Assembly: GCF_006345805.1 (NCBI RefSeq)
Contig: NC_043002.1
Coordinates: forward strand, 55,862,001-55,926,000
Source: Octopus sinensis
Lineage: Eukaryota
Length of the DNA stretch: 64,000 bases
Direction of reading: 5' to 3'
Part shown: one piece after another, positions 16,801 to 59,125 of the stretch
How the letters are laid out: each line of letters opens with the position of its first letter
Position numbering within the stretch: position 1 is the first letter of the stretch
Translations under genes and position numbers: made by a program
Notes under the pieces: generated by a model
Database searches by the model: none
What the model was told of the DNA's origin: nothing
Seen by the model: the letters and a program-made list of their open reading frames with translations, nothing else

Positions 16801-17408
16801 AGATAATGGTCAGCATCTCTGCTGGTGCCATGTGTAAAGCATCTGTGTTGGCATTAGGAAGGGCATCTAGCCATAGAAACGATGCCGAAACAGACAATTG
16901 GAGCTTGGTGCAGCTCTCAAGCTCACCAGCTCCTGTCAAACTGTCTGACCCATGCAAGCATGGAAAATGCATGTTAAATGATAACGACGAGGAACACAAT
17001 GACAATGATGACAATGGCAATGAGAAGGCTATTAAAGCAAGTTACCTCTTGATATTTGGCTATGCCTCCATTCACAGTAGCATTGATAGTTCCCCTGAGT
17101 TTCATAGACAGCAAAGTAAGCTCGGTGGTAGGTTTGATCTGACATTTCTCTATTTGGATTATCAAATCTTTGGTCACCTGCTTCATCAGGTCAATTGCAC
17201 CTTCAATTGGAGTTAGGTTTTCAACATCGATGCTCTCCACTTCATACCAGCGGAGAATCCCAGGCAATTTTTCAACAGTCTTGATTATAGATCGCTCTAT
17301 ACAGAGAGTCTGGGAACAAAGAAAACACATATTTAGATATACATACACACACACATTTATATATATATACACATATATATATATATATACATACGCACAC
17401 ACATTTAT

Positions 17409-17455
<47 letters not shown>

Positions 17456-20400
17456 GTAGTAGTGGTAACAGAAAAGAGGAATTTCAATTATCCCCACATG
17501 GTGAGTTGTAATGTATATAAGAAATTAAAAAAGGAAAATCCGCACACTTACAAAGTTTTAATTTAATTTTTAATATATCGACCAGTTTTGCTATCGCTAT
17601 TTGTCCAACCCATGCTAGCATGGAAAACGGACGCTAAACGATGATGATGATTCATGAAGAAATTTTGTCCATGTTGTGTGTGATGAAATTCACAAGTGAA
17701 TGACTTCACAAGTAGATAAATAAAGGGAGGTAATTGGTTGTCATTATTATTGTTATTGTTGTGGGTAATGAGATAACTGTTCAGCTTTTGGTAATGGGAG
17801 GGGAATATATATGTTTACAGACAGAGACCAGTTTCAAAAACCTTGTTTAGTGAGGGGATTTATGTACAGTGATGTAAACGTGAATTGAAATGTGTAAAAA
17901 GATAAAAGTTGGTTATGCGTGCATATTAAGACGTGTTTTGTATTTTTCAATAAAAAAAAATTTCTTTATTTAAACATTCTAGTTGAGAGATTGTGTCTAT
18001 GCACTGGTAGAAAGGGAAAACTGTGAAATTTGGTTTGATGTTACCTGCACATTTTTCTATATGCTCACTGAGAGGAATTTGTCTGTATTGTGGGAAACGG
18101 ATTTGCTCTTTATGTAGAGTGGTTCTCTTTCTCAAGGTCATACTCATTTGTCCAATATAGTGGTGTCCGCAACCTGAGCAGGTTGTTACATAAATTAGGT
18201 TCTCAGAGGCACAAGTGAAACTAGTTTTAATTGTGAACCTCTGTCCTTGTTTGAAAAGGAAATCCGAGCCTTCAAGCAGGTACCCAGGTTTGAAATTTCC
18301 CCAAGACATTTTCCCTGATGAAGGCTGGAGGGTATATCAGTCAAATGTAAATAATGTAAATAATTCCTCATCTCTTAAATACAGAACCGGATATTATGTA
18401 TCTCCGAATATATTTTGTAACACACACTCCATCTAGTCTTCTGTAACAATATAATATTTTTTTGATGTATTCTTTTTTCACACTGAGGAGAACAGTAATA
18501 TGTAATCAATTTAATTATAATTAAATTAATTTCTAGTTTTTTCTTTACCATGTTGTTTACATGTTAATATTATGGTTTAAAATGATCATATGCATGGATT
18601 AAATTCTTTTAAAACTTTTAACACCATCTTTGTTGAGCTTCTATAGGATATGTGTTCTATAAATACTCATAACACACCTTTTATATATATATGTGCATAT
18701 ATGCATACATATATGTACATACCTACATATATATGTATATATACATGCATATATGGGTACAGGACATAAAAAAAAACGTACACAAAATGAGAAACGAGAA
18801 CATAGAAAACAAAACTTTTTTAGAACAATGCAAAAAAACAAACAGAGAAATGAGACATACAACATAAAGAACATTCCCTTCATCAGTTGTCCCCTGTTTT
18901 ATTTACTCCACTTTTGTTAAAACAGTCCTTCCTGCAAAGCAAATTAAATAAAATTTGGGATTTTTTGCAGAGGGTTAAAGTGGTAACAAAAACAGGACAG
19001 TGAGAACAAAACAGTAAAAACAAATGGTGAGGGCTGTTAAGCCAAGACAATGTGAAGTGGTGAACACTAGAAAAACGAGCTTTGAGAAGAGGTAGATAAA
19101 AGCACGTCTTGTCTTTAGGAACGAAGTGGAAGAAAGAAAGATGGGTAGCTGTTGGTCACATGTAAGCAATGGGAGAATCAAGGAGGAAGAGTGAGAGAGA
19201 GAGGGAATGGGGTAGGGGAGAGGAGAAGAATATGGAAAGGGTGGGAGAGAAAAGCAGAAAGGAAGAAGAACAAGAGAGGGAGATAGATAGATAGACAGAA
19301 AAGAGAATAAGAGTGTGCATCAAGTGTGCATACAAACAAACCCCCAGAGAAAATGAGAGGGTGTGAGAAGTGGATTGGGAAAAGTGAAGCAAAGAAATGA
19401 AAAAGAAGAAAAGAAGTTTCCTTACTTTAAACTCATTATTTTTATCTTTTTCTCCTCTGTGGTATGGTCGATCATAGAGAAACGTGTCCACTTCGTTGAC
19501 TTGATAGAAAGACTTCACTTCCCGAGGGATAGAAGGATTACTCAGCTCTCCTTGATCTACCTTGAAAGGTTTCACACAACTGATTTGGATGTCTTTTTGG
19601 GGAGTTAAGGAAATTTATGCAAAGATAATCAGATTCTTTTATGAACACAAAGACAGTGACACAACAAAACACAATCAGCCAGGAGGGCATTGGTGCCATT
19701 TTGCCAGCACACATGGTAAATGAAACAGTTTGGTACCAGGAGCAGCTGTGTGGATCCAGGTTCACTCCTTTCGTAATATCCTGTCACTTAAATTATGACA
19801 TTTGAACCTCAAGATTATGCCCTGGCATTTGCCACTATCTCTCTCTCTCTCTTCCTTTACTCAACCATCTCATTTATACTCTGATCCCTGTTCCTTGTGA
19901 GAATGCCTGGCATTTTGCCACCATCTCTATCCTTCTGTCTCTCATTCTCTCTCCTCCTGCACTTCCCTTAGGTTGGTCAACCATATATTTCCTTTGCAGT
20001 AGCATACTCGTTTCCGTCTTCATTCCTGATCTTTCACTCTCCAGCCAGGTAACCTTGTACTCCCTCTACAGCAAGACACCTATATCTGTCTTACTATAAC
20101 CATTTTATCATCACCTCCTCCAATGTCTCCTCCCCTCTTAAAAGTTTTTATTTTGCAAGTACTTGGTGACCCTGTCAGTGCAGGTACCACTTAAAAGCAT
20201 CCAATCCACATTGTAAAGTGGTTAGTGTTAGGAAGGGCATCCAGCTGTAAAAACCTTGCCAGAACTGACCTCACCTGTGCTTGTGCCGCTGAGTGGTTGG
20301 TGTTAGGAAAGGCATCCAGCTGTAAAAAATCCTGCCAAAACAGTCACAGAAGTCTGGTGCAGACTTTGGTCTGGCCAGCTCTTGTGGTACCGTCCCACCC

Positions 20401-28200: not shown

Positions 28201-31200
28201 TTTAAGATTTAGTTGCTTTAATTGGAGCCTATATTATTAAAAAGAAATAATATATAATTACAGTTAAATATATATATATATACAGTTATATATATATATA
28301 TAACATGTGTGTACATGCACATATACACACGTGCATACACACACACACACAATGAGCTTCTTTCAAATTTCTTCAAAAGGCTTTGGTCAACCTGAGGCTA
28401 TAGTAGAAGACACTTGTTCAGGGTACCATGCAGTGGAACTGAACGCAGAACCATGAGGTTGCAAAGTGAGTTTCTTAATTACAGATAGGATGGTCATGGT
28501 TGGATTTCCTTCTATCAAAAGTTTGCTTCCTCACGACTGACCAAGGGCTGAACAACAACATCAGATATTAGCTGCTGCTACCTTTTTATTTCCTATACCT
28601 AATACCACTTCTCCTGAAGTTATGCAAGAGGCATCACCTGGCTTGTTAGAAATAGCAGCCAAATCTCACTCAACTGTCGTAAAACAGTCAAGACACATTC
28701 AATAATGTGATCATATATACACCATCTCAAGAAGAGAAGGTCACATTTGGAATGCTTTTAATCATAGGCTTACTTGATCAGGGATGGCCTGGGGCTAAAC
28801 AGCAAAATGATGATGATGATGATGACTAAGCGCTGTGCCATCAGCTTTACTCAACAACTGTCTCTGGAAGGTGAAACCATGTAACAGCCACAGAATCAAT
28901 ATCAGTCAGAATAGTGGGAGATAAATGGAGGAGGGGGAAGTCCAACCGATGTCAGCAGGGAATGTGGGGGGTGACGATGGCAGTAGTAATAATAATGGTG
29001 GTGGTGGTGGTGGTGGTAGCAATGATGACGATGGTGATGATCATGGTGGCAGTAGTGATGATGAAATCAATGGTGATGGTGGTGATGATGGTGAGGGAGA
29101 AGGAGAGAAAGAGACAAAGGAAAGAGAGAAGAGGAGAAAGAAGGAAAGAGAATGATTCATGGGGTAGAAGTGAGTAGTGTGCTGACCTTGGTCAGCTATG
29201 TCCACACAAACCACCACCGGCCTGAGAAAAACTACCCCCTCCCTCCTCTGGAACCAACCAGATGGAAAATATTGATTTGATTACAGGAAAGAGACCTTAT
29301 AAAAGGGGACACATCATTCTCTGCATGCCTTCCACAGCAGTAACAGTGGTACCTCTTCTCTCTATTAAACAAGGGAGCCTTGATGTGTTGCTCAACCTGT
29401 TAGAAATAGCAGTCAAACCTCACAACTTTACTGTCTCAAAAAGATAAAAAAAAAAAGAAGATATCTCAGGCACAGATGTGGCTGTGTGGTAAGAAGTTTG
29501 CTTTCCAAGTTTGCATGGTTCCAGGTTCAATCCCACTGAATGGCACCTTGGACAAGTGTCTATTTATAGCCTCAGGCTCAACAAAGCCTTGTGAGTGGAG
29601 TTGGCAAATGGAAACTGAAAGAACCCTGTTGTGTGTGTGTGGGTGTGTGAGTGTTATAAGAACAGTTTCTTTTTTATTTAACAGGCTCTATATGGTTACC
29701 ATTGTTTTGAATACACATTGTAATACATTTATCCCACTCATTGTGAACTTGTAATAGCACATCTGGTGATACGTGTGCAAATGAGTTGGTGATGCGTTCC
29801 TTCAAATGATTTATGTCTTTTATCTTTCTGCAATACACCACGCCTTTCAAATGCCCCCAAAGATAGAAATCAAGAGGGGTCAGATCAGGGGATCTAGAGG
29901 ATCTTATAAACTGTTTCTTATTAAAAAAATAATGTTTTCCTATGTATGGAGACTTTTGAATCACCCTGTATAAACATTAGGGAAAGAAACCCAACTGTTT
30001 CTTGCAATAAATACAGTAATTCCTTGCCATATCATGGCTCACCTGTCATGCTTTATTTAAGCTTACATTAATTCCTCCATGGTGTTTTGGATTTATAATA
30101 AATAAATATATAAAAAATAATTATAAAAATAATAAAAAAAGATATACAGTATTGTTTCTATTTTACAGATTTTCACCTATTGCTGGGGGTGGGGGTTGGA
30201 ACATAAGATCCGTAATAGTCAAGGGATTACTGAACATCTAAAGCAAAATTGGTTTCATGTGTTGGGCCTCACAGAGGCAATGACCAAGGCCTTTGGAATT
30301 ATGTTGTGCTTGAGAAGAAGACCCATTACTATCGACCCCTTAAGGATCCTACAAACCTCAGTTGAGAACCGCTGAATTAGAGAAAAGAAAAAAAACTTGT
30401 GCATGCCTGGCTGTGTGGTTAAGAAGATTACTTTGCAACCACATGGTTTCAGGTTCAATCCCTGATTGTGCAGCACCTTGGGCAAGTGTCCTCTACTATA
30501 GTCCCAGGTTGACCAAAGCCTTGTGAGTGAATTTGATAGATGGAAACTGTATGGAAGCTTCTCATGTGTGTGTGTGTATCTTTGTCCCTCACCACTGTTT
30601 GACAATAGGTGTTGGTTTGTTTACATCTTGATGACAGAGACTGATACAATAAGTTCCAGACTTATAAAAATGGGTCCTGGGGTCAATTTGCTTGACTAAA
30701 TCCCTCGAGGTGGTGCCCCAGCCTGGCCATAGTGCAACGACCGAAACAAGTAAAAGAGGAAAGGTAAATGGGGCGGCAGTATAGTAGAAGAGAGGAAAAG
30801 GAAAGGGAGAAAGAGGGAGTAGAATTGGGAGAAGGGGGGAGTAGAAAGTGTGCCAGAAGAGAAAGAGGTAGAAGCGCATGAAGAAGATGAGGAGGAGGAG
30901 AGAAAGAAGAAAAGGAGGGGATAGCAAAAGGAGAGGAAATCAAAGGAGGGGGTAATTAATAAGAAAGAAAGTGAAGAAGGCTGTGTGCTGGTAGGATTGT
31001 AAGAGAGACAGAAGAATGTGTTGCAGGATTTCTTGTGGTTCTCTGAGTTCTGGGTTCAAAGCAGGCTGAGACCAGCTTTGTCTCTTATCCTTCCAGGGTC
31101 CTTACAAATACTGGGGTCAATGCTTTTGACTAACATCCTTGAAATTGCTGATGGGTTTGTGTCATTGTAGTGTGTTGTATTTTACAGAGAGGGAGAGAGA

Positions 31201-34200
31201 GAGTAAGACAATGAGAGACAAAGAGAGACTGTAAGAGAGAGGCCTAAAGTGAGAGAGAGAGAGTATCTTACCTTCCCCTTATCAAAACAATCAATGATGT
31301 CCAAGTAGAGTCTCTCTTTGCGATCACACTGGAGCTCTGAGTGGTAATTCATCTCAGTTGGTAGTGGGCTCTCTGTCCATTCCAGTAAACTTGAGTAGAG
31401 CTGGAGTGTGAGTCCAGCCTCCACAAAACTATCTGTGTTCAGATGCAGTTCATATAACTTGTGAATATATCGAATATAAAGCTCTTCCTTGTTCACCTCA
31501 GTCTTGTAAAAATTCTAAAATCCAAGAAAAACAAAGAAAACATTAAATTCATTTAGATTTGAAAATAAATTTTTTATTTGTCAAAGAGAGATTAATTTTA
31601 AAAGGAATTAATTCTAGAATAAGGAATTAAACCAACTGATTTTTGTGTTTCTCAATTCCATCATCTCTCTTAGTAGAGAGGTCTTCGTCTTGCAACCAAC
31701 TTAACAACTCTGTTCATGCCATATAAAGACACCCGTGTTGGTGCCACATAAAAGCACCCGTGTTGGTGCCATGTTAAAAGCAGCCAGTACATTGTAAAGT
31801 GGTTGGCATTATGAAGGGCATCCAGCTGTAGAAACCATGCCAAATCAGACAAATGGAGCCTTGTGCAGCTATCTGATATGACAGTTCCTGTCAAAGTGTC
31901 CAACCCATGTCAGCATGGAAAAGGGATGTTAAAAGATGATGATGATGATGATGATAACAGGCACATCATTTGTTTTTTGTAGACTTCTTCCTCATTGTTA
32001 GCTGTTCTACTTTTTAAACAGAAACACACACACAAACAATTACAATATAAACATACTTACAAGAATATTATAGGTACAATGCATTCGTTTATCTTTGTTA
32101 TCCTCTTTGTCAATGTACTTCCTAAAAAAAGAAAAAGAGAAACATTGATAAAGAACAACTACATTGGAAGTTACAGTATGGCCTTAAAACTCTCTTGGCA
32201 GAAGAGGCACATTACAGTGTTCCTAACTTGACACATTGTTAGCCTACACAAACACTACAACATTTAATAAGCTACCAAATGTTTCAGTGACTGTTTAATT
32301 AACTCTTTTCATACCAACCGACGAAAGATCACACTTGGTTCTCTCTTACAAACTTCCTGTTTTAAAGCGGACCAAATTGAAACATTCCATCAAAATTTCT
32401 TGTTGGTTTATTTATGTTCCAAACACCACATTTATAATGGCCAAGTTGTTTCAAAAGAAATATGGTAACAAAAGGGTTAAATGTGTAACTGTGTGTGTTT
32501 GTGTGTTTATCACTATTCATGCATTAATATACACACACATGATTAAATGTATGGTAACTGGGATTACAAAAGCCATTTCTAAAGGTTTAACACCAATAGA
32601 GTTGTTTGGGATTAACAGTACCTATTAGTGAGTTGAAAGGGACAACAGAAAACGAGTGAAAGTTGATTGGGTCTGGGGGAGAGGAATCAATTTATAAGAC
32701 ATATTGCTAATCATAGACACTGAGAGTGGGAGGTTTAAGTCTTTTATGTGGTCTATTAATCAAGATTATTTAAAATCCATGTTCCATGCTGGCACAGACT
32801 GAATGGTCTGACAGGATCCAATGGGTCACAATCCAACATCAGCTTTGGCATGGTTTCTATAGCTTGATGTCCTTCCTAATGACAGCATACATTGGGTGCT
32901 TTATTTGTTTTCATGGTACCAGCACTTGTAGGATCACGATGCAGCTTACAAGACTATGAACCTCCAAGAGAAGCAGCTTTTATGTCAAGAAATGAAGGAT
33001 TAACCCTTTCATTACCAACCTGGCTGAAGGTGTTTTGTAGTACAAAAGTCTTGTTTTCAAAAGTTCTGAATTAAAATCCTCCACCAAACCTTAGTCACAA
33101 TTTATGTTCCTAACACTAGCTTAATGATAACTAATGATAGTTATTTTACTAAATTCTTGGTTATATTTAAAATTAATTGAAAGAAACACAGAACATCTCA
33201 AATACAGTAACAAAGGTTAAAGTAAGAGAGAAGGTTCCAGAGCAGAATCGGTTTCTTGCATAAAAGAGCTGCCTGGCTGGTACTAGATCAGTGGTTCTCA
33301 ACCATTTTTTTCCCTCTGGACTCCTTTGATCCTGGCTTCACTCAGACGGACCCTCACAGCCATTTGATGTTTAAAAACTCCCATTATGTTTTTATAATCA
33401 AATATTAGGAATTGTATAAAAAAGAATTGTTAAAATATTTTGTGTATTGGGGAAGCATAACTTATTTATTGCGCATAAATTTTCATGACAAAATCTTATA
33501 TGGACCCCTAAGGGCCATATATTGGCCCTGGTTGAGAACCACTGGACTATGAGATGATAAAAGTCTATATATCTCATATCAGGACTTCAATTTACTCATC
33601 ACAATTCACTGCATATTAAATACGAGTGTACTTAATATTAAAAGATAAAGAAAATTGTAAAAATCAAACCACACGGCTGTTATACCCTGTTTCTCATAAT
33701 TTCTTCATTATGGATGCAGTCGGTGTGTGAATGTGTTTGTCACTCCCTCTACCACCACTTGACAACTGGCATGGGTTTGTTTACATCCCTATAACTTAGT
33801 GATTTGGCAAAAGAGACTAATAGAATAAGAGCTAGACTTGAAAAACAAAAAATAAAATACTGCATGCTAAGGGTGGTATGTTCGACAAAGACCTTTTGAG
33901 GTGGTGCCCCAGCATAGCCGCAGTCCAACAACTGAAACAAGTAAAAGACAAAAAAATATTTCTTTTTCTTCAGCACCAAACAAGCAACACAATTTACTCT
34001 TTCCTCTCTTCTGTTTCTTGTTTTGTGTTAAGATCTAAAGACTTTGCCAGACACAGTTGCTTTATGACTAATCTTTAGAACCTCTTGAGAAGGTCAACAG
34101 AGTTTGACACCAGAAGCTGAGGTGGGGGGGATGTTCAATGGAACTGTTCAGCTGCCACCATCAGACTTTCTTTAGAGTCGGTCAGTTAGGTGAAGTTCAT

Positions 34201-47792: not shown

Positions 47793-48921
47793 TAATATAT
47801 ATATATATATACACACGTGTGTGTATATGATAGATCGTTAGCTCCTACATGCATTTTTTTTCTCTCCTTGACTTGTTCTATTTCTATTCCTGAGCTCTAT
47901 ACTAATACATTTGTTTGTTTGTACTCCACCTGCACTCGGCTTTTGTTTATTTTCGTAAACCTCCCCCCCCCGTTATATATATATATCACGTGATCGACCA
48001 GACCATCAGATGTTGTTACACATCGCTGGTCACAATGCGTTCGCATTGTTTTAGCCTTCGAATGATGCCACCCCGCTGGCTAAGCGAGCAGGCCAACAGA
48101 AGAAAGAGTGAAAGAAAGAGTGGTGAAAGAGTACAGCAGGGATCACCACCCCCTGCCGGACCATCATGGAGCTTTTAGGTGTTTTCGCACAATAAACACT
48201 CACAACGCCTGGTCTGGGAATCGAAACCGCGATCCTGCGATCGCGAGTCCGCTGCCCTAACCACAAGGCCATTGCGCCTCCACATATATATATATATATA
48301 TATATATACGTGTATGTTGGTTAATGTAGTCCTAGAAAACTAAAATAAAATGCAAGGTCTGATGATGATGATGATGGTTGAGTGACAGCAGAAAGATTGC
48401 CACTCAAGGCTTAAGGTTTATAAGGTTAGAATACTAATGGTCTTGGGAGGAGAGTGTGTGTGTGTGTGTAGGTGTATTTGTTTTACTAGAAAATGGCTCC
48501 ATACATTTCGGGGTGTATATTTATATATGATTAATATAAATGGTGTGAATGAGCAGACATTGTAGGCAATAAGTATTCAAACTATTAGAGAGAGAAAGAG
48601 AGAGAGAGAAAATGTGTTTGTGTGTCTTTCTCTCTCTCTCTCCTTTCTCTCTCTCACACTCTCTCATCTTTGTTGTTTTGTAGGAAAACTTCCTTCACAA
48701 GCCACACCTGGTGTAATTATTGTCTCTCATTACATCTATCACAACATTGTGAACTACAAACCCCAATCCTCTCCATTTAAAAAGCCACCATTAAGATGGA
48801 ACATTCCAGGCCTGTCCTATAAAGACATTTTCTACTTATTCATCCTCTTATCATTCCATATTTTCATTTTGCTTCATTTTTTTGTGTTTCAAAAATCTAA
48901 TTTACTCATTGCTGATATATA

Positions 48922-48956
<35 letters not shown>

Positions 48957-50076
48957 TCTTTTACTTTTTTACTTGTTGCAGTCATGTAACTGTGGTCATG
49001 CTGGAGCACCACCTTTAGTTGAGCAAATCCACCCCAGAGCTTATTCTTTGTAAGCCTAGAACTTATTATATCAGTCTCTTTTACCGAACTGCTAGGTTAC
49101 GGGGACATAAACAAACCAGCATGGGTGCTATTAGTGTGACACCAGTATCTACCACAACTGCGATTTTACAATATATGTATGTATGTATGTGTGTGTGTAT
49201 GTGTCTGTATACAGGGTGTGGTGACTATATTGTCATCTAAATCATGTAAAAATGAAAATAACACTGACATCACACTTGAACAGATATATTTACTAAAATT
49301 ACATAAAATATCTTGAAATACTAAAGGGTAAATTTATTCAATAAAGCCGTCATTGGTTTCAACCATGGCGTCTAGACAACTTTGGAATCTCCTGCAACTC
49401 TTCTGGACGGTCTCCTTGCTTCAGTTGGTGAATGCTGCCATAATCCTTGCCTTCAATTCATCTTTTGGTGTAAAGAGTTTTATTGGTCTCTTACTCAGCT
49501 GCATCCCACACATAACAATCAAGGGCATTGCAGTCTGGGGAGTTAGGTGGCCAGATGTTAGGGGTGGTGTGGTCGCAGAAATTGTCTGACAGCCGTGACT
49601 GGGTTCTCCTGCTTGTGTGGCATGGTGCTGAGTTCTGTTGCCAGACATAGGGTCTTCCAGCAGCCACCTGTTTAACCCAGGTCAACACTTCTTCCTCCAG
49701 GCATTTGATGTAGGCCTCCATGTTGAGTCTGAGGCTGTGTGGGAAGATGAATGGAGGCATAACATCACCATCACAAGTTATCACTCCAAACACCATGATG
49801 TTGACTGGATGTTTGATTTTTATCAATCTTGGTACATGTTTTGGGGACATGCAAACACTCACATTGGCACTTCTGGCATGAATGTCAAGCAGTACAGCAT
49901 GTTGTTTCCAAATTCTTGGCAGAGTGAATTGCATTATGGTACTGTTTTTCTCACAGATGGTGCCCAACTAACCCTACTATACTGTGTAGTCAACAAAATC
50001 AAAACAAAACAATGAGCAAGCGTGAAATTAAAAACATAAAATGACAACAATTTACCAATTGCACTCTGCATGTATG

Positions 50077-50123
<47 letters not shown>

Positions 50124-51252
50124 TCATCATCATCAATCATCATCATCATCATCATTTAACATCTGCATTCCATGTTGGTATGGGTTGGATGGTTTGACTG
50201 AGGACTGGCAAGCCAGAAGGCTGCACCAGGCCCAGTCTGATCTGGCAAAGTTTCTACAGCTGGATGCCCTTATTAATGCCAACCACTCTGAGAGTGTAGG
50301 GGGTGCTTTTACATGCCACCGGCATGAGGGCCAGTCAGGCAGTACTGGCAACGGCCATGCTCAAATGATCCTTTTTACGTGCCACCAGCACAGGAGCCAG
50401 TTAGGCAGCTCTGCCATTGACCACACACGAATGGTGCTTTTTATGTGCCAACAGCACCAGCTATACTCAAATGGTGATTTTTATGTGCCACTGGCATGGA
50501 TGCCAGTCAGGTGGCACTGGCATTGGTCATGACAATGATGTAATTTGACTCAACATATCTCCAAAGGTCTCGGTTACTTGTCATCGCTTCTGTGAGATAT
50601 GTGTGTGTATGTGTGTGTGTGTGTATGTGTGTGTGTATATCTATCCTATTTTAAAGTGATCTAAAAGCTTTCCATCAAAATTCTATGTTGACTTATGTTC
50701 CAAACACCAGCTTAATAATGACAAAATTATTTTACTAAATTCTTCATTAGATTCAAAATTAATTGAAACAAAGAAATTTCAGCAGAAAAATGTTAAAAAA
50801 AATATTGCCAAAGTCAATCTAAATTAAAACCTTTCAAAATCCATCTTAATTTAGGTTCCAAACACCAGCTTAGCATTGACAAAGTTATTTTACAAAATTC
50901 TATGAAACAAAGGCAGCCTATTTCAACACTAATCAGGATAACAAAAGGGTTCGATCATATTTGGTTAAACTAGGGTTTCAATTTTCACCATAGCCACATA
51001 TTCAACCAGTTTAATAAGCTGAATAAGCTGTTAAACTTGACACTCCAGTCAACTCTAACATACACATACACACACACACTTTTGTATTTAAAATAAAAGA
51101 AGAAAAATTCTTTCCTGGGACTGAAAGAGATATGCTTGGGTAGAGACTAACACCCAATTATGAATGCATTCACAAGTACAAAATAAACTATACAACCAAT
51201 TCAACTGGACACTTCTGCATACATCCTGTCCCCCATACAAATACTGAATGAG

Positions 51253-51293
<41 letters not shown>

Positions 51294-54200
51294 GCCAGCA
51301 GATGTACCAGCCCTGCATCATATACATAGACACATACTGACAACAGCAGCAGAGTTAACACACACACACACACCATGGCACACCTTGAAACTCAATGAGT
51401 CATGACGCTCAGATGAAACCCTATCCTAGAGAAAAAAAAAAAGAACAAGATGAGCTTTGCCAGAAGCTGGCAGTCAATGATGCAGACCACTAAACCTTTT
51501 GTTAATTCAAACAGCCTCAAAGACAACATGTGCAATGCATCAAAGCATATGCACCTACAAAACAGAGCATACATGCAACGGCAACTGCTGCAGCAATATC
51601 TAATGAAGAGTGATTCACTGAAAGAAAGACAGACAGACAGACAGATTCTGTTTAATTTGATAATAAACCCTTACCACCTCCACCACCCAGTTTCTAAAAT
51701 ATGTTCTGTTTAAAGTTTGAATAAAAATGGGGAGATAGTAAATAAAATACTTGAAACGTTCTCACCAATACACAAATAAAATGAGAGAAAGATGTGTGTG
51801 GTGGTGGTGGGTGGGGTGCAGGCATGGTTGTGTGGTAAGAAGTATGCTGCCCAACCACATGGTTCTGGGTTCAGTCCCATGACAACCAACATTTTTCTTT
51901 TTTTAAGTATGTTTGGAAGCTGAGTCAACAGAGAAGGGTTCCAAACTAAATGAAATCTCCAAATGGTTTCAATGCACAGCTCTCTGGTATCCAACTGGCT
52001 AAAATGTGTCAGCAGAAGGGAACCCAAAAGTCATGACCTAGATATGGCCCAGCCTCCTTAGAGTATAGGAAGTTAAAGGCTGAAACACTTGTCTGAGAGG
52101 GGGTGGGGTTCTCCCCTGAAGACCTTCTGCTGGTCAGCTCCCCAGAGAGTTTCCTACCACCAAGTCAGGGTCAAGCACTGAACATAATAGATTTATCTCC
52201 TCCCTTCAAAATTGCTGGCCTCAAACACAGTAAAGGATGGATGACCCCTTCAGTGGGAAATGTTATCTCATAGAAATCTCACTTAAATCTCATAGAAACC
52301 AGCTAACATTCATACATTCATTCAGTTCTCATTGTGCCATGTGGCACTTGAACTGACAGCAGAATCATTCCACCTTCCTACACTGAAAAGCATCCTTGAC
52401 AGCTTGCTCCATTGTTAACCTTCTGCTTTTAAGATCTTTTGTTATTGTTCTCCACCACATTTCCTTTGGACAGCGACATCTTTGTGGAACCTATTGCAAA
52501 GCAATCCTGACAACTGTGTTTGGTTTATAGCCATTTCCATCTCCTTGCTTCAGTAGTTTCTCTTATTAGTTTCCAATTACTATTTATAAATCTCACAATG
52601 AGAGATATTCAGCAACAGTACTTTGGAGTAAAGATTATTTGCCAACATAACATGGCAGTCCTGGTTTAGGATGAATGTTGCTGTAATTTAGCCCCAGGAG
52701 ACATCGTCTCCAGCTGGCTATACGACACGATCTGTGTCCTAAAATTTTCAAACACTCCAACTCAGCTCAAAACAATATCTGTGTATCGCGATTTCCAGGT
52801 TATGTTGGCAAATAATCTTTACTCTAGAATATTGTTGTGAGATTTATAAATAGTAATTTTCTAATTTATAAATCAGTGACTAGGTGTCACTTTGAAAATT
52901 ATATATTTTGAACAGGAATTTGGCAGCGCCACCTCTAGCCAAACAATTATTCTGTGCTGATGAAGGGAAATAACCCGGAAATACACAGATATTCTTTTGA
53001 GCTGAGTGGGGGTGCTAGATTACCTTATTTGAAAATATAAGGAGACTGATCGTGTTTTATAGCCAGCTGGAGACAATGTCTCCTAGGGCTAAATTACAGC
53101 AACATTCGTCTTAAACTAGGACTGCCATATTATGTTGACAAATAATCTTTACTCCATAGTGTTGGTCATGTTAAGAAAGCATTCTCTTTTAAAGACAGGG
53201 GTGAGTACATATTGGATTTGGTTTCATCCTTCAAGAGTTTGAATTTTAATGAAGATCAACTTTACCTTTTATCTCTTTAAGGGAGAATGGCAGTTGGCAA
53301 AATAAAGGCCAAGGAATACTGAAAATCCATCCTGCTGACTAGGATTGTCCCTTTCATTAACTGGCGCTATTAGTGTTAGAGAGGGCATCCAGCAGTAGAA
53401 ACTGTTCAAAAATGGAGCCTGATATAGCCCATAACTCACAAGATCCTGTCAAACTGTCCAACCCATGCCAGCATGGAAAATGGTTATTAAATGATGACGA
53501 TGACTGTAGTAATATCCTTTCCTCTACACAATTATTCTTTAGCAATGACCAATAATGTAATTATCGTTACATTTCGGTAATTGAAAATAAATAGATAAAA
53601 ATAAAACTCTACTAATTTAGGTTTTCTCAATGCAAGATAACAGGACACAGAACCAGATAAAGAGACAGATAGACAGTGTGACACGCACGCACACACACAT
53701 GCACACGCATGCACACATGCACACGCATTCACACACAGTGTCTGAGTTTTCCTTTTGTTTTTTTTGTTAACCTACATCTTTGACAATAGTATTCTCTTTA
53801 AAAATACATCAGTGAGAGGGGGGAGGAAGAGTGACAAGAGGTGGTGGCGGTGATGGCCATACAAAGAAATGTGCTGTTAATGAAGTGGGAGAGACCAGAG
53901 TTGTGGCAGTGGCAATACTTAAGATAATTACTGACCTAAACACACACACAGAGTGACACAGAAGGACACTCATACACAAGCATACACAGGCAAGCACACG
54001 GAGACATACACACATACACGCACTAACACACACCCACACATAGCTTGTATTTCTCATATCTACTTTCTTCCCCACCCCCACTCCACACACTGTGCCACAA
54101 ACAAGGCTGGGGAGGAGTTGGGGGTGGTTATATTTAGAAATGTGATAGATTTTATGGAAAAGCATGTTATATGCATGTGTGTGTGCGTGAGGATGGGCAT

Positions 54201-56004
54201 GTGAAGGTGGTCTGTGTATGTGTGTGTGAGCATGCGCAAGTGTGTAAGTGCTTGAGTGTGTGTATGTGCATGTGTAGGGTTTTTTAAAAAAATTTTTTTA
54301 CGTCTGTTTTTGCATGTCAGCATGGGTTAGACTTATTAATGCAGGTTCTCCACAACCAGCTGCTCTCCCACCATTCATTCCTTCAATCAAGATATCTTTA
54401 ACAGACTTCCAATTCCCATAATGAAACGTTACCTTACAAAAACACTGCATTTTATGCCTTCATCAATGTTACCATTGGTTACTATTGGAATGGCTTTAGA
54501 CTGACAGTTGCTGACTTGATCAAAGGTTTCTCTAACTGTCCAGCTCCAATGATAAAGCAACACGTCAAGAAATCACAGTTCCTTCCAAACACAAGACCAA
54601 CAGCAAATTGGTTTGTTATTACTTTTATTATTTATTATTGAGGCAGTGAGCTGACAAAGTTGTTAGTGGCATTTTGTCTGTCCTTAACTTCTGAGTTCAA
54701 ATTTTGCCAAAGCTGACTTTGCGTTTCAACCTTCCAGGGTCGATAAAAGAAGAAGCAAGTGAATTACCCCTCTCCCCAAATTCCAGGCCTTGTCCCAAAA
54801 TTTGAAAACATTATTACTCTGCATGTGTAAGCAAAAGCAGGGTATTGTAATCACTCGTCATCGTCTGTTTGTTTGCAAAATTACTGGAAAACGGCTGAAC
54901 GGATTTTCACCAAATTTGACAGAAATTCTCATTGGGTGAGTGGCTCGAACTCATTAAATTCTGGTTTGATTATCTTCAAAACTGGTGGACGGGTCAATCA
55001 AAATGTTTTTTTCTTTGTTACAGATGCATAAACGATAAGCAGGGGAAATAACTCTTGATGTCATTTCGTTGAAATATGAATTTGTCTGAGAATATATTTA
55101 CTAAATTAAATTTCATCCTTATGTGTATCGCTCCAGAGCCTTTTTTTCATTATTATTATTTAGGTGACAAGCTGAAGAAAGAAGTACCAGTGGTGCACTG
55201 GGCGGGTGAGATAAACAACTAGTCCCACCCACCTACCCAAAATTTTAGTTTTGTATCTATTAATAGAGAGGATTATTATCATTATCAATGTTTTCGTTGT
55301 TCTCATCTTAGATATTCACCATCATCATAATCACCATTCTAATCATCATCGTTTGATATTTATGTTTCCATTCCTACATAAGTCAAATGAAAGTCATTGA
55401 AGCAAAGTTATTCTGGAAGCCCTTCCTGTTGCTAACCTCTCACTTGTTCCCAAGTGGGGCAACAATCTCCCAGTCTGAGTAACAAACAGCACAGGCAGGT
55501 TTCATGCAGAGAAATGGAAACAAATGGCTCCATGTGAATGGGATTTATTTACAAATATCATGAGACATGTCATGTGGCCTGCACATGCTTTCACGACGGA
55601 CATATACATGGATAGATATAAATATATATGAGAGCAGTAGTAATGGAGATAAACGTAATATATGTCCATGCTGGCATGGGTTGGAGGGTTAAACCAGGGC
55701 TGGCAAGCTGGAAGGCTGCACCAGACTCCAGTCTAATTTGGCATGGTTTATATGACTGATGCCCTTCCTAACACCACCCACGCAGCATACAAAATACAGA
55801 AGACTGAAGAAAATACATAATTTCTTAACTTGACAGCTGTTTCAGGAAACTTTCAGGTATGTAATAATTGTAATAGTCATACTTAACAGATGGAATATGC
55901 AAGAAGTCTTGGGTATGCAACCAACAAACAGTCACATGCAGATATTACAATAAGTCCAGCTCACCTCATCAATAGAAAGTTAGCTCTCATCTATAAACTG
56001 TCTA

Positions 56005-56098
<94 letters not shown>

Positions 56099-57005
56099 TA
56101 CATACATATATATACATATACATCATCATCATATACATATATATATATGTATATATGTATATGATGATGATAATTATATATATATAAGTCTGTGTGGAAA
56201 GAGGTTGTATATATATCGAAATCAAACCAAATTCGACGACTGGCACCCATGCCAACTTTCCTGACACTAAACTCTGCTTACAGAGACCTGTTGGGGCAAG
56301 TGAAATCGAAATTGAACCAAATTCGATGACTAGCACCTGTGCCAGTGGAGCGCTAACAGCTCCATCTGAGCAGGATCACTGCCAGAGCAGCTAACTGGCT
56401 TCCGTGCCGATGGCACATAAAAAGGACCATTTGAGCGTGATCGTTACCAGTGTCACCTTACTGGCATGTGAACAAAACATTTGAGCGAGGTCGTTGCCAG
56501 TGCCACTGGACTGATTCCTGTGCAGGTGGCATATAAAAAACACCATTTGAGTGTGGCCGTTGCCAGCACCGCCTGACTGGCCCTCGTGCCGGTGGCATGT
56601 AAAAGCACCCACTATACTCTTGGAAAGGTTGGCATTAGGAAGGGCACCCAGCTGTAGAAACTCTGCCAGATCAAGATTGGAGCCATCTGGTTTGCCAGTC
56701 CTCAGTCAAATCATCGAACCCATACTAGCTTGGAAAGAGGATGTTAAATGATGATGATGATGATGATATATCTCAAAAATTATTAACAAGTTAGAAAAGA
56801 GAGAGATCTAATGGATACAAATTAATTTATTAATTAACATATTCACCTACAATTGTTTCATTTCACAAACAAGATTAAAATTACAAAACTTATATAAATA
56901 TATAATCTTGCATTTTAAATACCTTGTATGGAAAATCATCAGGCTGTACAAAGGACAATAAGGATTACACACACATACACACACACATATATATATATAT
57001 GTATG

Positions 57006-57036
<31 letters not shown>

Positions 57037-57091
57037 GTATGTGTATATACACATATATATATATATATATATATGTGTGTTGTATATATAC

Positions 57092-57123
<32 letters not shown>

Positions 57124-57176
57124 ATATATACATATATATATATATATGTGTGTGTATATATACATATATATATATA

Positions 57177-57217
<41 letters not shown>

Positions 57218-59125
57218 ATATATACATATATATATATATGTGTGTGTGTATATATACATCATCATCATCATCATCATCGTTTAACGTCCGCTTTCCATGC
57301 TAGCATGGGTTGGACGGTTCAACTGGGGTCTGGGAAGCCCGAAGGCTGCACCAGGCCAGTCAGATGTGGCAGTGTTTCTACAGCTGGATGCCCTTCCTAA
57401 CGCCAACCACTCCGAGAGTGTAGTGGGTGATTTTATGTGCCACCGACACAGGTGCCAGACGAGACTGGCAGACGGCCACGCTCGGATGGTGTTTTTTATG
57501 TGCCACCGACACAGGTGCCAGACGAGGCTGGCAGACGGCCACGCTCGGATGGTGTTTTTTATGTGCCACCGACACAGGTGCCAGACAAGGCTGGCAGACG
57601 GCCACGCTCGGATGGTGTTTTTTATGTGCCACCGACACAGGTGCCAGACGAGGCTGGCAGACGGCCACGCTCGGATGGTGTTTTCTTATGTGTCACCGAC
57701 ACAGGTGCTAGACGAGGCTGGCGGACGGCCACGCTCGGATGGTGTTTGTTACGTGCCCTCAGCACGGAGGCCAGTCATTGCGGTACTGGCTACGGTCACG
57801 TTCGGATGGTTTTCTTATGTGCCACCGGCACTGGTACCACAAGGATACAAATTCCATTGATGTTCATCTATTTTGATTTGGTTCGATTTGATTTGATACG
57901 ATTCGATTCTCACTTGCCTCAACAGGTCTTCACAAGTGTCACAAGAAGGAAGGTATGCACAGGTGGACTGACTACGTCCCAGGTAGGGGCCACGGATTAT
58001 GGCTTCACTAGTCTTGCCGGGTCTTCTCACGCACAGCATACTTCCATAGGTCTCGGTCTCTAGTCATTTCCATGGTGAGACCTAACGTCCGAAGGTCGTG
58101 CTTCACCACCTCGTCCCAGGTTTTCCTGGGTCTACCTCTTCCACGGGTTCCCTCAACTGCTAGGGATTGGCACTTTCTCACACACCTCTCTTCATCCATT
58201 CTCGCCACATGACCATACCAGCGCAATCGTCTCTCTTGCACACAACAACTGATGCTTCTTAGGTACAACATTTCTCTCAAGGTACTAACGCTCTGTCGAG
58301 TAAGTACACTGACATTACACATCCATCGGAGCATACTGGCTTCGTTCCTCACGAGCTTACGCATGTCCTCAGCAGTCACGGCCCATGTTTCACTGCCATG
58401 TAGCATAGCTGTCGTACACATGCATCATACAGTCTGCCTTTTACTCTGAGCGAGAGGCCTTTAGTCACCAGCAGAGGTAAGAGCTCCCTAAACTTTGCCC
58501 AGGCTATTCTTATTCTAGCAGTTACACTTTCAGCGCACCCACCCCCACTACTGACTTGGTCACCTAGATAGCGGAAACTATCAACTACTTCTAGTTTTCC
58601 CCCCGGAAAGTGACAGAAGTTGTTTTCTGCAGATTTTCGGAGGTCAGTGCTCCAGAGCACCTGCCACATACAAAAACTATCTTCCCAGTTAGCCTACCTT
58701 TGACATTGCTGCACCTCTTATGTGTCCATAGCTTACACTGGGTACACCTTATAGAGTTTCTACCTACACCTTTTCTACAGATCGAGCAGGGCCATCTTCC
58801 TGATGATATTTGTGGGTTTTCTACCTTTCTACTTATTAGTACTTTGGTTTTAGCTAGGTTATATATATAATGTGTGTGTGTATATATACATATATATATA
58901 ATATATTGTGTGTGTGTGTGTATATATATACATATATATATATATATGTGTGTGTATATATACATATATATATATATATAATATATGTGTGTGTGTATAT
59001 ATACATATATATATATAATGTGTGTGTGTGTATATATACATATATATATATATATATGTGTGGTGTATATATACATATATATATATATGTGTGTGTGTAT
59101 ATATACATATATATATATATATGTG

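What the first reader, a model, noticed from the sequence alone, without database searches (positions are those of the whole stretch)
52575..53156. Retrozyme-like 330-nt circularly permuted repeat with a minimal hammerhead whose two copies lost complementary parts
Seen: the plus segment 52800-53154 starts and ends with the same 25-mer (period 330), and the inverted copy (52803 to 52575) reads across that junction, as expected for a tandem or circular template. The plus copy has stem I, CUGAUGA, stem II and GAAA-UA but no stem III. The minus copy lacks CUGAUGA but keeps GAAA-UCGCGA-UA-CACAGA, with the palindrome ATCGCGAT (52785-52792). Merged: UCUGUG CUGAUGA AGGG AAAUAA CCYG GAAA UCGCGA UA^CACAGA. 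Established: minimal type I hammerheads with palindromic stem III occur in PLEs and animal retrozymes, cleave as dimers, and can yield small circular RNAs. Inference: a relic of a ~330-nt self-cleaving RNA family.
Basis: partly seen in the sequence, partly recalled or inferred. Interest (0 to 1): 0.8.

Follow-up and report, generated by a model that had tools for sequence, protein, structure and literature searches.

The report
Hammerhead retroelement inserted from both ends
This is a decayed copy of a 352-base non-coding repeat found at well over a thousand places in this animal genome; it carries a predicted self-cutting RNA motif and mostly sits as back-to-back pairs whose two outer ends almost always stop at two different fixed points, which likely records how Penelope-type jumping genes copy one RNA from both cut DNA strands.

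Summary
The feature is real, but no merging is needed: other copies carry the complete minimal type I hammerhead (55 exact 35-mers, control 0). The true unit is 352 nt; 330 results from this copy's own deletions. The minus copy never had CUGAUGA: it is 5'-truncated at the junction. The window holds one insertion of an abundant non-coding family (1,842 exact 24-mers). Of 87 insertions sampled without regard to structure, 59 are head-to-head pairs and none is tail-to-tail. In 48 of 50 classable pairs one end stops about 170 nt and the other about 228 nt after the cleavage site. Exact duplications of 9 nt or more flank 30 of 48 (control 2 of 254). Two sister families (352 and 348 nt) keep this geometry with compensated hammerhead stems. 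No coding Penelope-like (PLE) body adjoins the unit in 209 loci. Best reading: a retrozyme-like, non-autonomous PLE derivative, likely inserted by two target-primed cDNAs from two internal start sites. Cleavage, RNA circles and the helper element are not shown; the RNA reads look like read-through. The scan noted a similar insertion style for a ribozyme-free unit in another genome.

The parts
52566..52803 (-). Left arm: 5'-truncated copy running from unit position 333 through the hammerhead cleavage site to site B (about position 221-227). Outer end uncertain between 52566 and 52575.
52566..52623 (-). 'Tail': the ~55-nt segment between site A and site B, present at this end only
   Evidence: coordinates read
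52778..52795 (-). 3' half of the hammerhead on the minus arm: GAAA, palindromic stem III (ATCGCGAT at 52785-52792), UA cleavage site (between 52784 and 52783), stem I 3' strand
52799..52803 (.). Head-to-head junction; 5 bases fit both arms (microhomology)
52799..53153 (+). Right arm: slightly more than one unit, from about position 142-146 to site A (about position 172) of the next unit; carries 13-, 4- and 6-nt deletions that shorten the period from 352 to 330
52951..52989 (+). Minimal type I hammerhead of the right arm with the 6-nt stem III palindrome deleted (predicted inactive); cleavage site would be after 52983
52908..53031 (+). Predicted ~50-bp imperfect rod that extends hammerhead stem I (approximate limits, mapped from the family fold)
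53038..53110 (+). Stem-loop region (unit positions about 55-125) best conserved among the three sister families; candidate protein-binding signal (inferred)

Best explanation
The window holds one old, damaged insertion of a 352-nt non-coding, hammerhead-motif repeat family that was likely mobilised by the reverse transcriptase and endonuclease of a Penelope-like element (PLE). SHOWN: the family, its tandem 352-nt unit, the complete hammerhead motif in other copies, head-to-head two-armed insertions, two fixed outer ends (site A about 170 and site B about 228 nt after the cleavage site) used once each per insertion, 9-16-nt target-site duplications, and two sister families with the same geometry. 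INFERRED: a PLE protein, probably a dimer, binds the structured RNA just downstream of the hammerhead and makes staggered nicks about 10 bp apart; each nicked strand primes a cDNA, one at site A and one at site B; both cDNAs run upstream for a variable distance, a third of them through the uncleaved hammerhead into the previous unit (tandem or circular template); the two cDNA ends are then joined, often through short homology, so no separate second-strand priming is needed. The hammerhead would cleave only as a dimer, through its palindromic stem III, and inefficiently; cleavage is not required for insertion. Today the family looks inactive here and is seen in RNA as read-through.
For: Unbiased sample (first 100 of 1,842 exact 24-mer matches, all on contig C1; 80 loci, 87 insertions): 59 head-to-head, 0 tail-to-tail, 28 single or other; of 50 pairs with both ends in the two windows, 48 are A+B, 1 A+A, 1 B+B (binomial p=2e-12); 9 pairs had an end outside the windows. 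Exact duplication >=9 nt in 30 of 48 versus 2 of 254 mismatched flank pairs. All family-1 loci held: 93 A+B versus 2 same-type; family 2: 13 versus 1; family 3: 11 versus 0. Arms of one insertion share non-CpG subfamily variants (43 of 78 versus 1,657 of 10,040 between insertions; family 2: 15 of 20 versus 92 of 359), much less so CpG-decay variants (47 of 229 versus 3,010 of 22,800). Junction overlap >=3 nt in 23 of 57 versus 5.5% for random exact overlaps. 30 of 92 arms pass the cleavage site and 8 of 92 exceed one unit. Stems I and III differ among the three families yet stay complementary or palindromic; unit folds at z -5.4 and -7.9; two copies cofold through the palindrome (-34.7 versus 2 x -14.0 kcal/mol). 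PMC11167929 shows in vitro that a PLE protein nicks and extends both strands of AT-rich DNA, starts at two internal RNA sites bounding the tail, is predicted to dimerise and does not need hammerhead cleavage.
Against: No coding helper identified: the coding PLE families found share no sequence with the unit, and those whose 3' ends I read stop in (TA)n with a different hammerhead, unlike family 1. PMC11167929 saw no difference in start site between the two strands in vitro. No duplication is recognisable around the window's own copy. 15 of 57 junctions have gaps over 5 nt, and BLAST overlaps tolerate mismatches, so the microhomology comparison is loose. Variant sharing between arms is partial (5 of 20 discordant even in young family 2) and could reflect subfamilies active at the same time, not one RNA molecule. 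Position 10.1-11.1 is A-G in family 1 and U-U in family 3, not the G-C that PMC4209133 calls highly conserved; only 8 of 45 hammerhead-spanning arms keep core, stem I and palindrome. No pile-up of RNA ends at the cleavage site.
Confidence: 0.75

Rival explanations
1. [quoted passage not shown] The insertion step could still be PLE-driven, so this overlaps with the best explanation and differs in making the circle the obligatory intermediate.
For: Exact unit periodicity, arrays of up to 3.5 units, no leader sequence upstream of 80 single arms, consecutive units share variants (32 of 70 and 9 of 11), unit length conserved at 348-352 across three families, strong circular fold.
Against: RNA reads are mostly 90-95% like the reference, 64-72% run on into unlike flanks, both directions are equal, and unit-to-unit joints also occur in the DNA run. 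A tandem source locus explains the arrays equally well. The libraries laid are ordinary cDNA libraries from one study and could miss small circles.
Confidence: 0.4
2. The unit is the pLTR of a coding PLE not yet found; the arms are heavily 5'-truncated insertions of that autonomous element.
For: Inverted 5' segments and a one-sided tail are standard for coding PLEs (PMC8557442); own-genome searches score only the best 40-150 candidates, so a rare coding copy could be missed.
Against: Arms that run upstream return to the previous unit (67 of 304 family-1 arms exceed one unit) and never enter a shared body; only 4 of 209 loci have PLE fragments in the flank, none in pLTR geometry (L210 is separated by a (TA)n run); stops interrupt all frames of the unit.
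Confidence: 0.1
3. The head-to-head pairs arise by L1-style twin priming on one RNA (non-overlapping segments) or by later DNA-level inversion or fold-back, not by two programmed start sites.
For: Junction microhomologies and variable junction positions resemble twin priming (recalled from L1 work, not tested here); twin priming on a multimeric RNA is not excluded.
Against: The two arms copy overlapping parts of the unit; 45 of 46 B arms run more than 20 nt past site A with no pile-up there; the second end is fixed, not random; the duplication flanks the whole two-armed structure.
Confidence: 0.1

Closest known systems
Animal non-LTR retrozymes (PMC7229834; bioRxiv 10.64898/2026.07.22.740005)
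   Same: Non-coding ~350-nt unit, GC under 45%, one type I hammerhead per unit, tandem copies, target duplications longer than 4 bp, PLE link proposed.
   Different: Here most loci are sub-unit, head-to-head two-armed insertions, not arrays; the hammerhead is the minimal PLE-type form; two fixed 3' ends are used once each; no abundant circular RNA shown. 'Inverted' and 'tail' structures were not mentioned in the passages I searched in either paper.
Penelope/Poseidon PLEs, e.g. PAc of Anolis (PMC11167929) and D. virilis Penelope (PMC2377424, PMC8557442)
   Same: Minimal hammerhead with palindromic stem III, two internal 3' ends bounding a tail, inverted 5'-truncated partner, AT-rich targets, partial-tandem structure.
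   Different: No ORF; tail about 45-57 nt rather than 30-40; pairing of one A end with one B end is near strict here, whereas the papers call the tail optional or often one-sided and saw no strand difference in vitro.
Minimal PLE hammerheads that cleave as dimers (PMC4209133; review PMC6765202)
   Same: Core CUGAUGA...GAAA...UH, short palindromic stem III, dual copies on opposite strands 100-700 bp apart were noted in Schistosoma.
   Different: 10.1-11.1 is not G-C; stem I continues into a long rod; activity untested.

Membership tests
Type I (minimal) hammerhead ribozyme | Conserved core CUGANGA, GAAA, UH | tested here: met
   Invariant in 6 of 6 aligned copies of three families; 55 exact genomic 35-mers. 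The window's own plus copy keeps the core letters but lacks stem III.
Type I (minimal) hammerhead ribozyme | Stems I and III pair, with compensatory change | tested here: met
   Stem I TCTGTG/CACAGA, CACACG/CGTGTG, TCCAGA/TCTGGR; stem III TCGCGA, CTCGRG, CTAG in families 1-3; both intact in 62 of 93, 29 of 36 and 19 of 25 pattern-matched copies (the family-2 count includes 2 family-1 strays).
Type I (minimal) hammerhead ribozyme | G10.1-C11.1 closing pair of stem II | tested here: not met
   A-G in family 1, A-U/U-U/G-U in family 2, U-U in family 3; a 3-4-bp stem lies one position further in.
Type I (minimal) hammerhead ribozyme | Self-cleavage after H17 (as dimer) | not testable with these tools
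   Only a cofold prediction; no RNA-end pile-up; no Rfam match.
Non-LTR retrozyme | Non-coding tandem unit of 150-450 nt with one hammerhead per unit | tested here: met
   352-nt period in L011, L014, L017, L291; 348 in L327; stops in all frames. Arrays are a minority of loci.
Non-LTR retrozyme | Accumulates as small circular RNA | tested here: inconclusive
   Two raw RNA runs of one study show read-through-type reads and no circle-specific signal; libraries not suited to small circles.
Non-LTR retrozyme | Target-site duplication longer than 4 bp | tested here: met
   >=9 nt in 30 of 48 versus 2 of 254; not recognisable at the window's own copy.
Autonomous Penelope-like element | ORF with RT and GIY-YIG endonuclease flanked by the repeat | tested here: not met
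   0 of 209 loci in pLTR-ORF geometry; no shared body in 80 upstream flanks.
PLE-mobilised insertion | Inverted 5'-truncated partner and a tail at one end only | tested here: met
   59 of 87 head-to-head; 48 of 50 A+B.
PLE-mobilised insertion | Sequence kinship of the unit with the pLTR of a coding PLE in the same genome | tested here: inconclusive
   None among the coding PLE loci examined; searches return only the best-scoring families.

The most novel reading that the evidence does not exclude
Each insertion is made by an asymmetric PLE protein dimer sitting on a single 352-nt (possibly circular) RNA, with one reverse transcriptase fixed at site A and the other at site B, so both nicked target strands are primed on the same template and the two first-strand cDNAs complete each other. 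This would explain the PLE 'tail' and inverted repeats as one rule, be the first insertion-level proof that animal retrozymes use PLE machinery, and define a ~230-nt portable RNA signal kept at constant spacing across three diverged families.
Probability: 0.35. Interest if true: 0.8.

Novelty: new variant of a known kind. Interest (0 to 1): 0.55.

Why it matters
How Penelope-like elements finish insertion (second strand, tail, inverted repeats) and how animal retrozymes move are both open; the 2026 preprint argues the PLE link from co-occurrence and sequence kinship only. These families give thousands of short, fully resolvable insertion records with a near-strict one-A-one-B rule and target duplications, which turns the question into a simple in vitro test on a 352-nt RNA. 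The back-to-back arms also make ready double-stranded RNA in host transcripts, which looks A-to-I edited. The window's own copy is a dead relic.

Tried and rejected
Rfam search of 48000-58000: no hammerhead family at E<=5. Search for a coding partner: Neptune-like family seeded by window 17950-18336, GIY-YIG profile hits and a second PLE clade share no sequence with the unit; chance neighbours at L028, L118, L210, L268 rejected as pLTR-ORF. A loose hammerhead pattern found only 7 length variants of family 1. Idea that the cleavage site sets the 5' ends of arms: arm ends are somewhat more frequent just downstream (14 of 45 at risk in positions 1-30) than just upstream (5 of 31), not a sharp stop. 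Idea that edited RNA templates were copied into the genome: A>G exceeds T>C only modestly (133/6,696 versus 101/6,612, p=0.048; 150/8,329 versus 108/8,283, p=0.01; none in family 2; other pairs are also asymmetric), so not claimed. Editing at the cleavage-site A itself: the A>G at L014:1655 and 1657 comes with C>T at 1656 in similar read numbers, so one diverged expressed locus explains it; not claimed. No RNA holder was on record in the run index. A pair count on alignment A1 used a stem I register off by one and is disregarded. No host exon found on the minus strand between 31.6 and 64 kb (42 frames), so an intronic position is not shown. No earlier scan note by sequence or in this genome. 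Literature searches without a cephalopod retrozyme report or an A+B rule; the Lunse et al. dimer paper is not held; supplements and Repbase/Dfam were not seen and may list these families.

Full report
OBSERVATION. The described motifs are at the stated places. The 25-mers at 52800 and 53130 match at 24 of 25 bases, the inverted copy is real (E 3e-85), and the palindrome is at 52785-52792. Rfam returns no hammerhead in 48000-58000 at E<=5; minimal forms may fall below its models.

THE FAMILY. The window lies in a 2.72-Gb animal genome; its repeats look like those of an octopus, which is recalled and was not tested. A DNA search gave 2,921 first-look candidates (40 scored); an exact 24-mer occurs 1,842 times and a complete-hammerhead 35-mer 55 times, both with 0 for the reversed control. 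Tandem loci give a period of 352 nt. Aligned to the family, the window's plus arm has deletions of 13, 4 and 6 nt and one extra base, which makes 330; the 6-nt deletion removes the stem III palindrome. The minus arm begins at unit position 333, after CUGAUGA, where it meets the plus arm over 5 shared bases. Copies differ from the column majority by 8.4% (6.8% outside CpG), and the best full units reach about 96%: family 1 is old. The sequence is held by runs of six coded organisms (shares of words, only 4 runs laid).

INSERTION ANATOMY. I took the first 100 of the 1,842 matches (all on contig C1; 80 loci after merging overlaps). The 24-mer lies in both arm types, so the sample is blind to structure. 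Of 87 insertions, 59 are head-to-head, 0 tail-to-tail and 28 single or other. Outer ends cluster at positions 162-182 (site A) and 220-236 (site B) after the cleavage site. Of 50 pairs with both ends in these windows, 48 have one A and one B (p=2e-12); 9 further pairs had an end elsewhere. An exact duplication of 9 nt or more flanks 30 of the 48, against 2 of 254 mismatched controls; most are 9-16 nt and overlap the element ends by a few bases. 30 of 92 arms cross the cleavage site and 8 of 92 exceed one unit; 45 of 46 B arms run well past site A. Junction overlap is 3 nt or more in 23 of 57, and 15 of 57 have gaps over 5 nt. The window's insertion fits (left arm B, right arm A), although no duplication is recognisable there.

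SISTER FAMILIES. Two related families turned up in flanks. Family 2 (2,224 candidates) is younger (95-99% among the best 40), has exactly 352-nt units, aligns end to end with family 1 (identity not computed), ends at 173 and 216-219, and inserts in (TA)n. Family 3 (2,919 candidates) has a 348-nt unit and ends near 170 and 222-230. Over all loci held, A+B versus same-type pairs are 93:2, 13:1 and 11:0, with 25, 1 and 2 pairs unclassed and 52, 15 and 13 single arms (these sets are not all unbiased). Hammerhead cores are invariant while stems I and III differ between families and stay paired. Natural units fold far better than shuffles (z -5.4; -7.9), with a long rod continuing stem I. Against activity: position 10.1-11.1 is not G-C, and only 8 of 45 unbiased hammerhead-spanning arms of family 1 keep core, stem I and palindrome.

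IS IT A pLTR? Several coding PLE families exist here, some with 775-883-aa open frames. None of the loci examined shares sequence with the unit; the Neptune-like ones whose ends I read carry different minimal or variant hammerheads 70-200 nt before a (TA)n end. Of 209 family loci, 4 have PLE fragments in the flank, none contiguous; 80 flanks upstream of single arms share no body (7 hit rows, local duplications or other repeats); 67 of 304 family-1 arms continue into the previous unit. The helper therefore remains unidentified, and a rare coding copy is not excluded because searches score only the best candidates.

RNA. Two raw RNA runs of one study (organism B; about 6% of each read) gave 1,854 and 1,602 reads on one unit, equal in both directions, mostly 90-95% alike, 64-72% running on into unlike sequence, with loose ends behind sites B and A and no pile-up at the cleavage site. 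This is read-through of genomic copies; it neither shows nor excludes circles. A>G and T>C differences are listed at 32+23 and 29+26 places in RNA against 7+1 in the contig run X17, while G>A and C>T are 16+22 and 17+23 against 11+12; this suggests A-to-I editing of the hairpins formed by the two arms, but the DNA is from another organism and is contigs.

MECHANISM. Both outer ends are sense 3' ends, that is cDNA starts joined to target DNA, inside one duplication. The simplest reading (inferred) is two target-primed cDNAs from staggered nicks, started at sites A and B and joined at their far ends. PMC11167929 (parts 1-2 of 4 of the text read) shows for a lizard PLE two internal start sites bounding the tail, nicking and extension of both strands, a predicted dimer and no need for cleavage, but no strand difference in start site. 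The near-strict A+B rule adds that the two events are coordinated. Arms of one insertion share subfamily variants (43 of 78 versus 16.5% between; 15 of 20 versus 26% in family 2; permutation p<0.001) far more than CpG-decay variants, which fits a common template or source and argues against later gene conversion, without proving one molecule.

COMPARISON AND NOVELTY. Non-LTR retrozymes (PMC7229834, passages), their proposed PLE origin (10.64898/2026.07.22.740005, parts 1-3 of 5 and term search), minimal dimer-type PLE hammerheads (PMC4209133 and PMC6765202, passages) and the inverted partner with one-sided tail (PMC8557442 and PMC2377424, passages) are all published. In eight searches I found no cephalopod retrozyme and no count of an A+B rule; supplements, Repbase and Dfam were not seen. 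It works like a non-autonomous PLE; membership among retrozymes is met for unit and duplication and open for circular RNA. An earlier scan note (e1-7881736) describes a similar insertion style for a tRNA-like unit in another genome; I did not test it.

VERDICT. Real, a new variant of a known kind; the local copy is a relic, the family-level insertion rule is the part worth following. Interest 0.55.

Noticed in passing
window 17950-18336 (-): GIY-YIG endonuclease fragment of an abundant Neptune-like PLE family (15,645 first-look candidates) that ends in (TA)n; unrelated in sequence to the 352-nt unit.
   Followed up: partly
window 31185-31514 (-) and 16977-17483 (-): Frames with weak Pfam matches to DOCK DHR-2 lobes A and C (E about 1e-4, below cut-off): likely exons of a DOCK exchange-factor gene; whether the finding lies in its intron was not shown.
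   Followed up: partly
L257:6950-7300 and L264-L293: Family 2: young 352-nt sister family with intact hammerheads and (TA)n targeting; best material for cleavage and circle tests.
   Followed up: yes
L263:5480-5800 and L324-L348: Family 3: 348-nt sister family with a 4-nt stem III palindrome and the same two end sites.
   Followed up: yes
L246:4125-4175 (+), L217, L257, L258: Coding Neptune-like PLE (775-aa frame in L257) with its own minimal hammerhead (CUGAAGA core, palindromic stem III) about 200 nt before its 3' end.
   Followed up: partly
L221, L230, L242, L227, L228, L041 3' ends: Other Neptune-like families carry hammerhead-like motifs with an altered first half of the core (e.g. UUGAUAA) and palindromic stem III about 70 nt before the end; read by eye, not tested.
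   Followed up: no
L244 and L245: Coding Neptune-like PLE copies arranged head-to-head over several kb; L244 has a ~281-nt tandem repeat in its 3' UTR.
   Followed up: partly
L294-L323: A second PLE clade (8,452 candidates) with a different RT thumb and C-terminal GIY-YIG and a long CA-rich 3' UTR; clade not assigned.
   Followed up: partly
L048:2590-2640 (+): A further minimal hammerhead of another sequence next to a (TA)n run.
   Followed up: no
L014:1479-1831 (reads): Excess of A>G and T>C differences in RNA reads over DNA contigs, suggesting A-to-I editing of the two-armed insertions.
   Followed up: partly
L027, L029, L163: Single arms with 9:0, 8:0 and 7:1 A>G versus T>C changes, possibly copies of edited templates; family-wide excess is weak.
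   Followed up: partly
L006:1858-3145: Array of ~164-nt sub-units (positions about 13-172) in tandem, apparently repeated starts at site A or later local amplification.
   Followed up: no
window 49494-49967 (-) and 58011-58424 (-): Frames resembling a Tc1/mariner transposase fragment and an RTE-like LINE end (recalled resemblance; no such Pfam match).
   Followed up: no
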